Source: a bacterium
Lineage (GTDB): Bacteria; Arandabacterota; Arandabacteria; Arandabacterales; JALGWA01
Direction of reading: 5' to 3'
Length of the DNA: 10,268 bases
Assembly: GCA_050125095.1 (NCBI GenBank)
Contig: JASFEA010000114.1
Location: forward strand, 1-10,268
A model generated the notes under the pieces. That model searched no databases. It was given only the letters and a program-made list of their open reading frames with translations, and was not told where the DNA came from. This document shows, in pieces, positions 1 through 10,268 of this stretch. A program made the position numbers and the translations under genes. Every line of letters begins with the position of its first letter. The stretch's first letter is position 1.

Positions 1-495
<495 letters not shown>

Positions 496-526: not shown

Positions 527-2647
527 TCAAATCATGTCCTCGATTCTCGCCGTCATCTTATCGGCGATCCTGTCCGGAACGACGTCGTACTGCTCGAATT
601 GCATTGTGAAAAGCGCGCGGCCCTGCGTCGCCGACCTCAGGCCCGTGGCGTATCCGAACATCTCGGAGAGCGGCACTGCCGCCCTGGCGACATGCCCGTC
701 GGCGCGAATCAGGCTGCCCATTATCTTGCCACGCCTGGACCGCAAATCGCCTATGACGTCCCCGACATACTCCTCGGGCACGACGACTTCAACGTCCATG
801 ATCGGCTCCAGAAGGACCGGCCTGGCCCTCAGGATCGCGTCGCGAATCGCCATCGCCGATGCTATCTTGTAAGCCACGTCCGTCGCCTCCTGGTCGCGGT
901 ACGACCCGCCGACCAGAGTCACCTTGACGTCGACGACGGGGTAGCCCGCCAGCAACCCGTTCTCGAGCGAGTCATGTACGCCCTGTTCGATGAACGGCAC
1001 GAAGTCCTCGGGAATTGCCTCCGGCTTCGCCTTCGACTCGAACTCGAAGCCCGTGCCTCTTTCCCGCGGCTCAATCTCTATAATCACGTGGCCATACTGG
1101 CCCTTGCCCGCCGCCGCCTTCACGAACTTGCCTTCGGCGCGGGCCCTCTCCGTTATACTCTCCCTGTATGCGACCTGTGGTTTACCGACATTGGCCTTCA
1201 CGTTGAACTCGCGAATCATCCGGTCGACAAGGATCTCGAGATGGAGCTCGCCCATCCCGGAGATAATCGTCTGGCCGGTTTCCTCGTCGATCTTTACCCT
1301 GAATGTCGGGTCCTCCTCCGCGAGCCTGCCGAGCGAACTCTCGAGTTTCTCCTGATCCGCTCTCGTCTTGGGCTCTATAGCCACCATGATGACGGGCTCC
1401 GGGAATGCCATCGATTCGAACATTATCGGGTAGTCGTACTCGCAGAGGGTATCGCCCGTCACCGTCTTCTTTATGCCCACTGCCGCCACGATGTCCCCGG
1501 TCAGCGCATGCTTGAGCTCTTCGCGCTTGTTGGCATGCATAAGCAGAAGCTTGGTGTTCCGCTCCTTATGCCCCCGTGCGTTCCATATGTTCGTGCCCGC
1601 CTTTATTTTGCCCGAGTAAACCCTTAAGTATGTGAGCTTGCCCACATAGGGATCGCTCATGATCTTAAACGCCAGCGCCGAGAAGGGCTCGTCGTCGCTC
1701 GGGCGGCGTGTTTCTTTCTCGCCGGTGTTCGGGTTCACGCCCTCCACCGGCGGTATGTCAATCGGGGACGGCAGGTATTCCACGACTGCGTCAAGGACCT
1801 TCTGTACGCCCTTGTTCTTAAGCGCGGCCCCGCAGAGAACCGGCACGACCTCCGCCCGGAGCGTGCCATTTCGCAGGGCTTTCTTTATGTCGTCATCGCT
1901 AACCTGTTTGCCGTCGAGATACCCGGCCATTGCCTCGTCGTCGAACTCGACGACGGACTCGACCAGCCTCTCTCTCGCAAGGGCCGCCTCATCCCGGTAC
2001 TTTTCGGGAATCTCGGCGACGTCGAATTTCATTCCAAGCGACTCCTCGTCATACATGTAGGCCTTCATCTCGATCAGGTCTATTATGCCCTCGAGTTCGC
2101 GGCCGCTTCCCATGGGCATCTCGATGGGGACGCCGTTCGAGCAAAGCCGTTCTCGTATCATGCCTACGGCCCTCTCGAAGTCGGCACCGATGCGGTCCAT
2201 CTTGTTGATGAAAGCGATCCTGGGCACCCTGTAGCGATCAGCCTGCTTCCAGACCGTCTCTGACTGGGGCTCGACGCCCCCGACTCCGCAGAAGACCACC
2301 ACGACCCCGTCCAGGACGCGCAGCGACCTCTCGACTTCCATCGTGAAGTCCACATGTCCGGGCGTATCTATAATGTTGATGGCGTGATCCCTCCAGAAGC
2401 ACCTGGTAGCGGCCGACGTGATGGTTATGCCGCGCTCTTTCTCTATTTCCATCCAGTCCATCGTGGCCGCGCCGTCGTCGACGTCGCCGGGCCTGTGGAC
2501 CCGCCCGGTGTAATAGAGAATTCTCTCCGTGAGCGTGGTCTTGCCTGCGTCAATATGCGCGGCTATCCCGATGTTTCTCACTTTCTCAAGCGGGATGGTT
2601 CTGTCGTCTGCCAATTTCGTCCCACACTCTTTGGTTAAAGTCGCCAT
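527..2647 (-). CDS. fusA: Elongation factor G family protein (str-operon copy; atypical domain IV, possibly recycling-type EF-G2)
   Basis: 706-aa ORF with [47 protein letters not shown] and [17 protein letters not shown], located between rpsG and tuf. The start is uncertain: ATG at 2647 or in-frame TTG at 2614 (codon 12), which gives a more typical N-terminal length. Confidence 0.97.
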
Positions 2648-2680
2648 CTATACACTCTCAAACACATACCCAACCGCTCA

Positions 2681-3151
2681 TTACCACCTGTAATGCGCGA
2701 AGGCCTTATTGGCCTCGGCCATCCTGTGCGTGTCTTCCTTCTTCTTTATCGCCCCGCCCTCGTTCTTGGACGCCGCTATTAGCTCCGCCGCCAGTTTTTC
2801 CTGCATTGTGTGCTCGCTCCTGGCGCGCGCGTAGCCGATTAACCAGCGGATCGCCAGCGCCGTCTTCCTCTCCAGCCTCACCTCCATGGGGACCTGGTAG
2901 GTTGCTCCGCCGACGCGCCGCGGCCTTACCTCCAGAACAGGCTTCACATTGGTCAGAGCCTGCTTGAAGACCTGTATGCCGGCCTGCCCCGTCCTTTTCT
3001 CGATCATGTCGAGGCTTGAGTAGAAGATCCGCTCCGCAGTACTCTTCTTTCCCTTCGACATCAAGCTGTTGATGAACTTGGTGACGAGAGGGCTGTTGTA
3101 CTTGGGATCCGCCATTACCTCTTTCTTCTTAATGAGTTTTCTTCTCGGCAT
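2681..3151 (-). CDS. rpsG: 30S ribosomal protein S7 (uS7)
   Basis: 156 aa, MPRR...[11 protein letters not shown]...[15 protein letters not shown]...[21 protein letters not shown]. The TAA stop is followed immediately by a second in-frame stop, TGA (2678-2680). Confidence 0.99.
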
Positions 3152-3167: not shown

Positions 3168-3563
3168 CTAGCCGCCTGCAGCCGGGGTCGTGCTCTTCTT
3201 CATCTTGGTGCCGTACTTGGACCTTGACTTCATACGGTCCTCAACGCCGCTGGCGTCAAGGGCGCCCCTTATGATGTGGTAGCGCACACCCGGAAGGTCC
3301 TTGACTCGGCCGCCGCGCACGAGCACGATCGAATGCTCCTGCAGGTTGTGCCCCTCGCCCGGTATATAGGCCGTGACCTCAATGGTATTGGTCAGCCTCA
3401 CACGCGCGACTTTCCTCAGCGCGGAATTGGGCTTCTTGGGCGTCGTCGTGTACACTCTCGTGCAAACGCCGCGCCTCTGCGGGCAGCCCATGAGCGCAGG
3501 GGCCTTCGTCTTGGACTTCTGCACGTCCCTGCCGCGTTTAACTAACTGGCTGATTGTCGGCAA
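3168..3563 (-). CDS. rpsL: 30S ribosomal protein S12 (uS12)
   Basis: 131 aa with a TTG start; MPTISQL...[21 protein letters not shown]...GHNLQEHS...[13 protein letters not shown]...RSKYG. It has a short C-terminal extension (STTPAAGG). Confidence 0.99.

Positions 3564-3583: not shown

Positions 3584-7705
<4,122 letters not shown>

Positions 7706-7708
<3 letters not shown>

Positions 7709-7725: not shown

Positions 7726-10268
<2,543 letters not shown>

What the first reader, a model, noticed from the sequence alone, without database searches (positions are those of the whole stretch)
881..1120. str-operon EF-G has lost all three conserved domain IV tip loops: candidate translocation-deficient, recycling-type EF-G
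Seen: numbering from ATG 2647, loop I reads K510-AAAGKGQY (nt 1094-1120) versus canonical KQ(S/T)GGRGQY. The GGVIP loop reads P542-EAIP (nt 1010-1024). Loop II reads Y-R584-DQEAT (nt 881-901) versus canonical YH(D/E)VDSS. The flanking strands ([23 protein letters not shown]), the G-domain motifs, GMGELHL and domain V remain conserved, so the loss is localised rather than general decay. Established: these loops contact the tRNA anticodon-mRNA duplex, and the E. coli Q507 and H583 equivalents are needed for fast translocation and reading-frame maintenance. Some lineages split EF-G into a translocase and a recycling factor (mitochondrial mtEFG1/mtEFG2, Borrelia EF-G1/EF-G2, the spdEFG1/spdEFG2 groups). 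Inference: this organism's ancestral-position fusA has specialised for RRF-dependent ribosome recycling, with a paralog elsewhere doing translocation. In an apparently FCB-like lineage this may be an undescribed or independent case. If no paralog exists, it would be a highly unusual translocase.
Basis: partly seen in the sequence, partly recalled or inferred. Interest (0 to 1): 0.75.

Follow-up and report, generated by a model that had tools for sequence, protein, structure and literature searches.

The report
Tip-altered EF-G in the str operon
The elongation factor G gene at the usual ribosomal-operon position has a rewired ribosome-probing tip while two other copies in the genome keep the standard tip, so it is most likely a recycling-type EF-G of an already described kind, found in a little-studied phylum.

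Summary
Observation confirmed. The fusA between rpsG and tuf (530-2647, minus strand) reads [14 protein letters not shown] and YRDQEAT where E. coli has KQSGGRGQY, GGVIP and YHDVDSS. Its GTPase motifs and other domains are intact.

The genome holds two more EF-G genes, both with canonical tips. One is EFG-I-like (P2). The other is EFG-II-type (P3).

The same trio was found in 13 of 13 genomes of the order that are at least 85% complete. Overall constraint on the str copy and P2 is equal (pairwise identity 0.77). Loop I identity is 0.60 in the str copy against 1.00 in P2.

The case is not independent of the known spdEFG split. One genome of the sister order carries an spdEFG1-type paralog. In trees the str copy groups with the tip-altered partners of spdEFG1 from other phyla, with SH-aLRT 98 or 84 depending on the model.

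Best reading (about 0.55): an spdEFG2-like EF-G relieved of routine translocation and working with RRF. Its translocase partner here lacks the spdEFG1 insertion. No activity was tested. This is a new member of a known kind, of moderate interest.

The parts
527..2647 (-). fusA, the str-operon EF-G: 706 aa, coding 530-2647, stop 527-529. All five EF-G domains are present. The GTPase motifs are intact and the domain IV tip is altered.
   Evidence: (TIGR00484 1030.4 bits, cut-off 659.4)
1766..2584 (-). G domain (Pfam GTP_EFTU, residues 22-294) with [18 protein letters not shown] and NKMD. There is no 3-residue insertion in switch I.
824..1180 (-). Domain IV (Pfam EFG_IV, residues 490-608). It scores 117.6 bits against 149.3 and 154.3 in the two paralogs.
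1094..1120 (-). Loop I of the tip, K510-Y518 KAAAGKGQY (E. coli K506-Y514 KQSGGRGQY). Across the order this is the least constrained loop, and 9 of 16 copies carry a 2-residue insertion.
1010..1024 (-). GG loop, P542-P546 PEAIP (E. coli G541-P545 GGVIP). The Gly-Gly pair is lost in 16 of 16 str copies of the order. The second Gly is Glu or Asp in 15 of 16.
881..901 (-). Loop II, Y583-T589 YRDQEAT (E. coli Y582-S588 YHDVDSS). Its length is kept. V585Q is found in 16 of 16 copies. His583 is kept in 12 of 16 and is Arg in this genus and one other genome.
2681..3151 (-). rpsG (S7), directly upstream of fusA.
3168..3563 (-). rpsL (S12), with a TTG start in the ORF listing.
1..495 (-). 5' part of tuf (EF-Tu), downstream of fusA. 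It continues on contig C11, which carries the S10-spc-alpha ribosomal protein genes.
3584..7708 (-). rpoC. This name is my reading from its size and position; I ran no family search on it.
7726..10266 (-). rpoB, truncated at its 5' end by the window edge. This name is my reading from its size and position; I ran no family search on it.

Best explanation
The gene is the ancestral-position (str-operon) EF-G of a small FCB-like candidate phylum. One relative's record is labelled Candidatus Eisenbacteria.

It belongs to, or behaves like, the spdEFG2 / EF-G2 class. These are GTPase-competent EF-Gs that have been relieved of routine tRNA-mRNA translocation, because another EF-G with a canonical tip does that job.

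In this genome the likely translocase is paralog P2 on contig C108. An EFG-II-type paralog, P3 on contig C1, is a possible back-up.

Proposed mechanism (inferred, not shown):
- The protein still binds the ribosome and hydrolyses GTP.
- Together with the genome's single RRF it splits post-termination ribosomes.
- For that it needs the body of domain IV and a length-conserved loop II.
[quoted passage not shown] They are no longer under that selection and drift.
For: 1. Three full-length EF-G genes are in the genome. P2 reads KQTGGHGQY / GGRIP / HEVDSS and P3 reads KQTGGRGQY / GGAVP / HPVDSS. P2 has intact G motifs and TIGR00484 scores 994 bits.

2. The trio is present in 13 of 13 order genomes that are at least 85% complete. 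Across all 16 order genomes, P2 was found in 15 and P3 in 14. All str copies lie between S12-S7 and tuf wherever the contig reaches that far.

3. In the same 13 genomes whole-protein pairwise identity is 0.771 for the str copy and 0.772 for P2. By loop, str against P2: loop I 0.595 against 1.00; GG loop 0.513 against 0.85; loop II 0.725 against 0.768.

4. Loss of universally conserved residues is concentrated in domain IV: 17 of 47 columns against 13 of 228 elsewhere; 9 of 31 against 5 of 179, p = 1.3e-5.

5. E. coli mutagenesis matches this pattern. Deleting loop I keeps polysome breakdown with RRF. Deleting loop II abolishes it. H583K, S588P and E589A impair translocation (PMC4666400, passages). 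H583R and Q507 mutants are dominant-lethal and frameshift-prone (PMC7749637, passages).

6. Recycling-only homologues carry comparable loop I changes. In Borrelia EF-G2 the first loop-1 Gly is Ala, as here. In EF-G2mt the second Gly is Asp (PMC8203779, passages).

7. Sister-order genome G016 has an spdEFG1-type paralog. In trees with the tip columns removed, the str copies group with the tip-altered partners of spdEFG1 from other phyla. Support for the 17-row clade is SH-aLRT 98 under LG+G4 and 84 under LG+C20 PMSF; a 19-row version has 92.

8. In 7 of 10 spdEFG1-bearing genomes examined, the partner EF-G sits in the str operon. Its tip ranges from canonical (2) to altered in all three loops (2).

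9. Precedent for a str-operon copy not being the translocase: P. aeruginosa EF-G1A (PMC3832671, abstract and passages).

10. The genome has one RRF gene.
Against: - No activity was measured.
- G017 of the sister order (96% complete) shows only a str-type copy plus an EFG-II-type copy. That str copy has already lost the GG pair and has V585T, so those changes are compatible with being the main EF-G.
- In 5 of the 16 order str copies both Gln507 and His583 are kept.
- E. coli H583R is only about two-fold slower in vitro.
- Codon usage does not mark P2 as highly expressed. P2 lies at the 2nd-4th percentile in two measures and the str copy at the 58th-66th. Control genes are not separated either, so the test has little power.
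- The gene sits between rpsG and tuf, where transcription should be high. In E. coli, tip mutants are toxic when overexpressed.
- No spdEFG1 is present in this order, so the defining spdEFG1/spdEFG2 pairing is not met in this genome.
- PDB bit scores show no special affinity to mitochondrial EF-G2: 485 of 866 for the str copy against 499.5 of 871 for P2.
- Support for the spdEFG2-like clade falls below 95 under the better model.
Confidence: 0.55

Rival explanations
1. The str copy is still the main, dual-function EF-G (translocation and recycling) with a lineage-specific tip. P2 and P3 are accessory or condition-specific factors.
For: - G017 has only the str-type and an EFG-II-type copy.
- Loop II is as conserved as in P2, and His583 is kept in 12 of 16 copies.
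- E. coli H583R is only about two-fold slower.
- The gene sits in the str operon next to tuf.
- Codon usage of the str copy is nearer the ribosomal-protein set than that of P2, although the test is weak.
Against: - Loop I and the GG loop vary freely among close relatives, and 9 of 16 copies have a 2-residue insertion. In the same cells these loops are invariant or nearly so in P2 and P3.
- Of the 148 nearest domain IV representatives, 112 keep all three motifs and only 7 keep none.
- The three genomes in my sample with a single EF-G all have canonical tips.
- Tip mutants at the same positions are dominant-lethal and frameshift-prone in E. coli.
Confidence: 0.25
2. The rewired tip serves a new function other than recycling, for example a stress, rescue or ribosome-protection role.
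For: New residues are fixed rather than random. V585Q is in 16 of 16 copies, G542 is Glu or Asp in 15 of 16, and R361K and L405F are in 16 of 16. Ribosomal protection proteins are EF-G relatives; that they act through altered domain IV loops is recalled, not from a call.
Against: - Tetracycline-protection models score far below their cut-off (392 against 775 bits).
- Nothing in the neighbourhood suggests a special role.
- The closest functional precedents with similar loop changes are recycling factors.
Confidence: 0.12
3. The gene is decaying, or the pattern is an assembly or contamination artefact.
For: The genome is a 268-contig bin with 3.45% estimated contamination.
Against: - The frame is open in all 16 order genomes (13 are 706-742 aa; 3 are cut by a contig end), and the G motifs are intact.
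- Overall conservation equals that of P2.
- The branching orders of the P2 and str-copy clades within the order largely agree, so P2 is not a contaminant.
Confidence: 0.02

Closest known systems
spdEFG2 / bacterial EF-G2 of Borrelia burgdorferi / mitochondrial EF-G2 (RRF2mt): recycling-specialised EF-G paralogs (Margus 2011, PMC3150367; Atkinson 2015, PMC4342817; Koripella 2021, PMC8203779)
   Same: - A full five-domain, GTPase-motif-intact EF-G whose domain IV loop I has lost the conserved Gly-Gly context. The first Gly is Ala, as the paper reports for Borrelia EF-G2.
- It coexists with a canonical-tip EF-G.
- It groups in trees with the tip-altered partners of spdEFG1.
- One sister-order genome holds spdEFG1.
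   Different: - No spdEFG1 is found in this order. The canonical-tip partner, P2, lacks the switch I insertion and is more like Thermus EF-G than mitochondrial EF-G1 (871 against 567 bits).
- An EFG-II-type copy is present as well.
- No named spdEFG2 sequence could be put in the tree.
- The score against mitochondrial EF-G2 is not raised.
- Recycling-only activity is untested.
Pseudomonas aeruginosa EF-G1A (str operon) and EF-G1B (Palmer 2013, PMC3832671)
   Same: The str-operon copy is the poor translocase with a proposed recycling role. A second EFG-I-type gene elsewhere is the translocase.
   Different: The Pseudomonas pair is 84% identical. The passages I read mention only a 5-residue insert in domain IV and divergence in the C-terminal region assigned to domain IV. 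Here the pair is 52% identical and the tip loops themselves are rewritten.
EFG II subfamily (Thermus EF-G2, Bacteroides EF-G2)
   Same: A second-copy EF-G that accompanies another EF-G. The genome's P3 belongs here: SHGGAGKTS, RKITL and DTPGY, with NF009381 as best NCBIfam model at 931.6 bits.
   Different: The window's gene is not of this type. It has canonical G1-G3 motifs, and it lies outside the EFG-II clade, which is 100-supported. EFG II keeps canonical tips.
Tetracycline ribosomal protection proteins (Tet(M), Tet(O))
   Same: EF-G-derived GTPases. That they have altered domain IV loops is recalled, not from a call.
   Different: The NCBIfam tet_protect model scores 392 bits against a cut-off of 775. 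The str-operon context and 55-61% identity to canonical str-operon EF-Gs of other phyla argue against membership.

Membership tests
EF-G (TIGR00484 equivalog) | Whole-protein score above the curated cut-off, and the five-domain architecture G/G', II, III, IV, V | tested here: met
   1030.4 bits against a cut-off of 659.4. Pfam finds GTP_EFTU, EF-G_D2, EFG_III, EFG_IV and EFG_C.
EFG I (Margus 2011) | [quoted passage not shown] | tested here: met
   The definition is taken from PMC3150367.
EFG I (Margus 2011) | Groups with single-copy EF-Gs rather than with the spdEFG groups | tested here: inconclusive
   It lies in a 25-row group (SH-aLRT 94) that also holds canonical str-operon EF-Gs. Within that group it sits with the tip-altered partners of spdEFG1 (98 or 84). 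The paper itself says some EFG I and spdEFG2 assignments are ambiguous.
spdEFG2 | Co-occurs with spdEFG1 in a genome that lacks a separate EFG I | tested here: not met
   No spdEFG1-type gene is in this genome or order. It is met only in sister-order genome G016.
spdEFG2 | Phylogenetic grouping with the partners of spdEFG1 | tested here: met
   The 17-row clade has SH-aLRT 98 under LG+G4 and 84 under LG+C20 PMSF; a 19-row version has 92. Tip columns were removed.
spdEFG2 | Grouping with mitochondrial EF-G2 | tested here: inconclusive
   Only bit scores were available. Against 7l20_w the str copy scores 485 and P2 499.5; against Thermus EF-G they score 866 and 871. No tree with mitochondrial sequences was possible.
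spdEFG2 / EF-G2 function | Active in RRF-dependent ribosome splitting and inactive in translocation | not testable with these tools
   Needs biochemistry.
spdEFG1 | Three-residue (KDG-type) insertion in switch I | tested here: not met
   Absent from the str copy, P2 and P3. Present as RDG in G016 paralog L063. The feature is taken from PMC3150367.
EFG II | Degenerate G1 and G2 motifs (no RGITI), and membership of a separate clade | tested here: not met
   The str copy has [13 protein letters not shown] and DTPGH and lies outside the EFG-II clade, which has 100 support.
Tetracycline ribosomal protection proteins | Score above the NCBIfam tet_protect cut-off | tested here: not met
   392.2 bits against 775.

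The most novel reading that the evidence does not exclude
In several phyla the ancestral str-operon fusA, not the extra copy, is the one that gives up translocation.

In this order its original translocase partner, spdEFG1, is still present in one genome of the sister order. Here it has been replaced by a different, insertion-less EF-G lineage (P2). The same lineage also partners a str-operon EF-G with a strongly altered tip in a second, tiny phylum (G030, G031).

If so, split EF-G systems can exchange their translocase. The conserved new tip residues (V585Q in 16 of 16 copies, G542 to Glu or Asp in 15 of 16) would then mark a recycling-optimised domain IV rather than mere decay.
Probability: 0.35. 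Interest if true: 0.5.

Novelty: new member of a known kind. Interest (0 to 1): 0.35.

Why it matters
Splitting EF-G's two jobs between paralogs is known from mitochondria, Borrelia and the spd groups.

This case adds a candidate phylum in which three EF-G genes coexist: one tip-altered in the str operon, one canonical, and one EFG-II-type. Constraint on the first two can be compared in the same cells. Loop I and the GG loop are free to drift in one copy and frozen in the other, while loop II is kept in both. That is a natural counterpart of the E. coli mutagenesis result that loop I is dispensable for recycling and loop II is not.

It also argues against the working assumption that the str-operon copy is always the stable, dual-function EF-G (PMC3150367). 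This matters for automatic annotation and for choosing fusA as a phylogenetic marker.

Tried and rejected
1. Codon-usage proxies for expression. I used CAI, Karlin E(g) and a log-likelihood ratio against 20 ribosomal-protein and rpoA genes, with 1758 background ORFs. Bias is weak, and known highly expressed genes (rpoB, rpsL) are not separated. P2 scores low in two of the three measures. I treat this as inconclusive and slightly against P2 being highly expressed.

2. Shine-Dalgarno inspection. rpsG, rpsL, rpoC and tuf have GGAG-type sites. The str fusA has only GAGAG and P2 has none. This does not discriminate.

3. Bit-score affinity to mitochondrial EF-G2 in the PDB. There is no excess for the str copy, so it is not informative.

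4. AU test of an in-lineage duplication, holding P2 and the str copies as one clade. The log-likelihood is 30 lower and p-AU is 0.21, so it is not rejected. P2-type plus spdEFG1 as one group has support of only 55 or 80. The origin of P2 stays open.

5. Test for convergent loss of recycling-specific positions in P2 and spdEFG1. The overlap (odds ratio 2.5-3.3) is no higher than the background between any two groups. The overlap between the str copies and the tip-altered partners is higher: odds ratio 14, or 18 without the tip columns. The partner set was chosen by its altered tips, and several shared positions are labile in all groups.

6. Search of 1.84 billion representatives with domain IV alone. 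Most hits are fragments without context. I used it only for motif frequencies.

The 14 named control genomes include no spd lineage.

8. Supplementary files (Margus Figure S1 and S2, Atkinson Additional files 1-2) were not seen. They may already list spdEFG-type genes or gene contexts in FCB-like phyla.

9. Literature searches. 'Eisenbacteria' plus 'EF-G' returned 0 papers. 'spdEFG1' or 'spdEFG2' returned 4 papers; I read passages of three of them. The Atkinson and Baldauf 2011 paper was not in the library; I know it only through citations.
Full report
OBSERVATION

The minus strand of the window carries, in order, rpoB (cut at its 5' end), rpoC, rpsL, rpsG, a 706-codon fusA (530-2647) and the start of tuf. 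rpsL, rpsG and tuf are named from their matches to E. coli S12, S7 and EF-Tu and their conserved order. rpoB and rpoC are named from ORF size and position only.
- KAAAGKGQY, residues 510-518, nt 1094-1120.
- PEAIP, residues 542-546, nt 1010-1024.
- YRDQEAT, residues 583-589, nt 881-901.

I aligned the protein to E. coli K-12 EF-G, using E. coli numbering without the initiator Met as in PMC7749637. The changes are Q507A, S508A, G509A and R511K in loop I. In the GG loop they are G541P and G542E. In loop II they are H583R, V585Q, D586E, S587A, S588T and E589D.

The G1-G4 motifs are canonical. Pfam finds all five domains. EFG_IV scores 117.6 bits against 149.3 and 154.3 in the two paralogs, while the other domains score alike. 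TIGR00484 scores 1030 bits against a cut-off of 659.

One reservation: ATG 2647 is unverified as the start, and an in-frame TTG lies 11 codons downstream.

PARALOGS

The genome (91% complete, 268 contigs) holds two further full-length EF-G genes.
- P2, on C108, is 694 aa and 52% identical. It has canonical G motifs and reads KQTGGHGQY / GGRIP / HEVDSS. TIGR00484 scores 994 bits.
- P3, on C1, is 695 aa and 39% identical. It has SHGGAGKTS, RKITL and DTPGY, which is the EFG II signature, and canonical tips.

There is one RRF gene.

RELATIVES

The collection holds 18 genomes of this phylum: the window's order (families f1 and f2, 16 genomes) and a sister order (f3, 2 genomes). One relative's record title reads Candidatus Eisenbacteria.

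All 13 order genomes at least 85% complete have the three genes; in G009, P2 is split over two contig ends. Over all 16 order genomes P2 was found in 15 and P3 in 14. The misses are bins of 83% and 57% completeness. Every str copy lies between S12-S7 and tuf where the contig allows.

Loops in the 16 str copies:
- No copy has a canonical loop I. Gln507 is kept in 6, and 9 carry a 2-residue insertion.
- The Gly-Gly of the GG loop is lost in all 16. The second Gly is Glu or Asp in 15.
- V585Q is in all 16. His583 is kept in 12 and is Arg in this genus and in G009.

The 15 P2 copies all read KQTGGHGQY and H[ED]VDSS, and 12 have GGRIP (3 have EGRIP). All 15 P3-type copies of the phylum (13 from the order, 2 from the sister order) read KKQTGGRGQYGD and H.VDSS. 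The sister-order str copies read RQMGGHGQF, ADEIP or GDLVP, and HETDST. They are only partly altered.

CONSTRAINT

In the same 13 genomes, mean pairwise identity over the whole protein is 0.771 for the str copy and 0.772 for P2. By region, str against P2:
- Loop I: 0.595 against 1.00.
- GG loop: 0.513 against 0.85.
- Loop II: 0.725 against 0.768.

Of 275 columns at least 90% conserved in 10 canonical EF-Gs, the str copies lost the canonical residue in 30, of which 17 fall among the 47 domain IV columns. An earlier version with a slightly different reference set gave 9 of 31 against 5 of 179, p = 1.3e-5. P2's own 34 losses are spread over all domains, including 8 in domain V.

So the str copy is a well-maintained protein whose loop I and GG loop have been released from selection, while loop II is kept with a new consensus.

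Among the 148 nearest domain IV representatives in a 1.84-billion-protein library, 112 keep all three motifs and 7 keep none.

WIDER PICTURE

Sister-order genome G016 has a paralog with a 3-residue insertion in switch I. Its best PDB match is mitochondrial EF-G1, at 787 bits against about 625 for E. coli and Thermus EF-G (the best bacterial chain, 6not_A, scores 638.5). That insertion is the spdEFG1 signature given by Margus 2011.

spdEFG1-like genes (E at most 1e-210) occur in 32 of 301 genomes sampled at 90% completeness or more. That is 31 of the 290 outside the phylum, 0 of the 9 order genomes sampled (the window's own included), and 1 of 2 in the sister order.

I examined 10 spdEFG1-bearing genomes. 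In 7 the partner EF-G lies next to S12-S7. The tips of those 7 are:
- Canonical in 2.
- Altered in the GG loop only in 1.
- Altered in loop I and the GG loop in 2.
- Altered in all three loops in 2.
The other 3 genomes have tip-altered partners elsewhere in the genome.

A second tiny phylum (G030 and G031, 2 of 2 genomes) has a str-operon EF-G with a strongly altered tip. It has Gly-Asp in loop I, the change reported for EF-G2mt in PMC8203779. It also has a canonical, insertion-less partner that groups with P2 (support 95, 87 or 61), and an EFG-II-type copy.

TREES

The trees used 68 rows (quick IQ-TREE, LG+G4) and 52 rows (LG+C20+F+G4 PMSF). Near-duplicate order copies, fragments and, in the second tree, most EFG II rows were left out. 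Tip columns were removed.
- spdEFG1 is a clade with support 100 in both trees.
- The phylum's str copies sit in a 17-row clade with six partners of spdEFG1, the G030 and G031 str copies, and two further tip-altered paralogs. Support is SH-aLRT 98 in the first tree and 84 in the second, and 92 for a 19-row version.
- P2-type plus spdEFG1 as one group has support of only 55 or 80.
- Holding P2 together with the str copies is not rejected: p-AU is 0.21.

So the window's EF-G is best described as spdEFG2-like. The origin of P2 is unresolved.

Every genome in which I saw a tip-altered EF-G also held a canonical-tip EF-G-family gene, with one exception: the 83%-complete bin G001. The three genomes with a single EF-G (G022, G025, G029) have canonical tips.

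MECHANISM

The mechanism is inferred from E. coli and mitochondrial work.
- In E. coli, deleting loop I leaves RRF-dependent polysome breakdown intact. Deleting loop II or introducing S588P abolishes it. H583K, S588P and E589A impair translocation and are toxic when overexpressed (PMC4666400, passages).
- Q507H, H583R, D586V and mutations at S587 and S588 are dominant-lethal and raise -1 frameshifting several-fold. H583R is only about two-fold slower (PMC7749637, passages).
- EF-G2mt and Borrelia EF-G2, both recycling-only, have lost one of the two loop-1 glycines (PMC8203779, passages).
- In P. aeruginosa the str-operon EF-G1A is 75-fold less active in poly(Phe) synthesis and is proposed to act in recycling (PMC3832671, abstract and passages).

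The pattern here is a free loop I, a constrained loop II of unchanged length, a Ser588-equivalent that is Thr, Ser or Asn, and intact GTPase motifs. That is what a recycling-dedicated EF-G would be expected to show.

LIMITS AND EVIDENCE AGAINST

- No activity was measured.
- G017 (96% complete) has only the str-type and an EFG-II-type copy, so loss of the GG pair and the change at V585 are compatible with a main EF-G.
- Codon usage and Shine-Dalgarno inspection do not single out P2 as the abundant factor.
- The defining spdEFG1/spdEFG2 pairing is not met in this genome.
- Clade support drops under the better model.
- Supplements of the two survey papers were not available.

VERDICT

The case is a further instance of the described EF-G split, not an independent invention. 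The new elements are the phylum, the clear demonstration that the str-operon copy is the relaxed one, and a partner without the spdEFG1 insertion.

Noticed in passing
G028 loci L033 (G028:C3:4086-6140) and L082 (G028:C14:48523-50595): A 98%-complete genome of another lineage shows only two EF-G genes at E at most 1e-100. One has a fully altered tip (RSLGDSVQF / EDKLFP / WSEDSST) and intact GTPase motifs, and is not next to S7 or S12. The other is EFG-II-type with a canonical tip but DTPGY. No gene combining a canonical tip with the catalytic His was found, so the EFG-II-type copy may be the translocase there.
   Followed up: partly
G030 (L062/L097, L034, L083) and G031 (L095, L094, L096): A two-genome phylum has the same three-gene layout. 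The str-operon EF-G has Gly-Asp in loop I and a 1-residue shorter loop II. The canonical partner groups with this window's P2 (support 95, 87 or 61), and there is an EFG-II-type copy.
   Followed up: partly
G016 locus L099 (G016:C216:955-2994): One sister-order genome carries an spdEFG1-type EF-G with an RDG insertion in switch I. Mitochondrial EF-G1 is its best PDB match. spdEFG1-like genes were found in 31 of 290 sampled genomes outside the phylum, spread over many families. That is wider than the name 'spd' suggests.
   Followed up: partly
G000 C1:49768-51801 (L003:1480-3564): The third EF-G paralog is EFG-II-type, with the catalytic His replaced by Tyr (DTPGY) and a canonical tip.
   Followed up: partly
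window 2648-2680 and upstream regions of rpsG, rpsL, rpoC and tuf: rpsG, rpsL, rpoC and tuf each have a GGAG-type Shine-Dalgarno site 6-12 nt before the start. The str fusA has only GAGAG. rpsL and rpoC are listed with TTG starts.
   Followed up: partly
window 2575-2647 (residues 1-24 of EF-G): The order's str copies have an N-terminal extension of about 14 residues relative to E. coli and the sister order. In family f2 an internal Met is conserved at the position where other EF-Gs start, so the true start may differ between families. In this genome an in-frame TTG lies at codon 12.
   Followed up: no
window 1-495 and G000 contig C11:21979-38916: The window's contig abuts contig C11. The tuf 5' part is 99% identical at the C11 end, and C11 continues with rpsJ through rplQ (the S10-spc-alpha genes).
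   Followed up: partly
L002:1-1350 (G000 C108, next to P2): The gene next to P2 encodes a protein with many CxxCH motifs, so it looks like a multihaem cytochrome. I saw no translation-related neighbour for P2.
   Followed up: no
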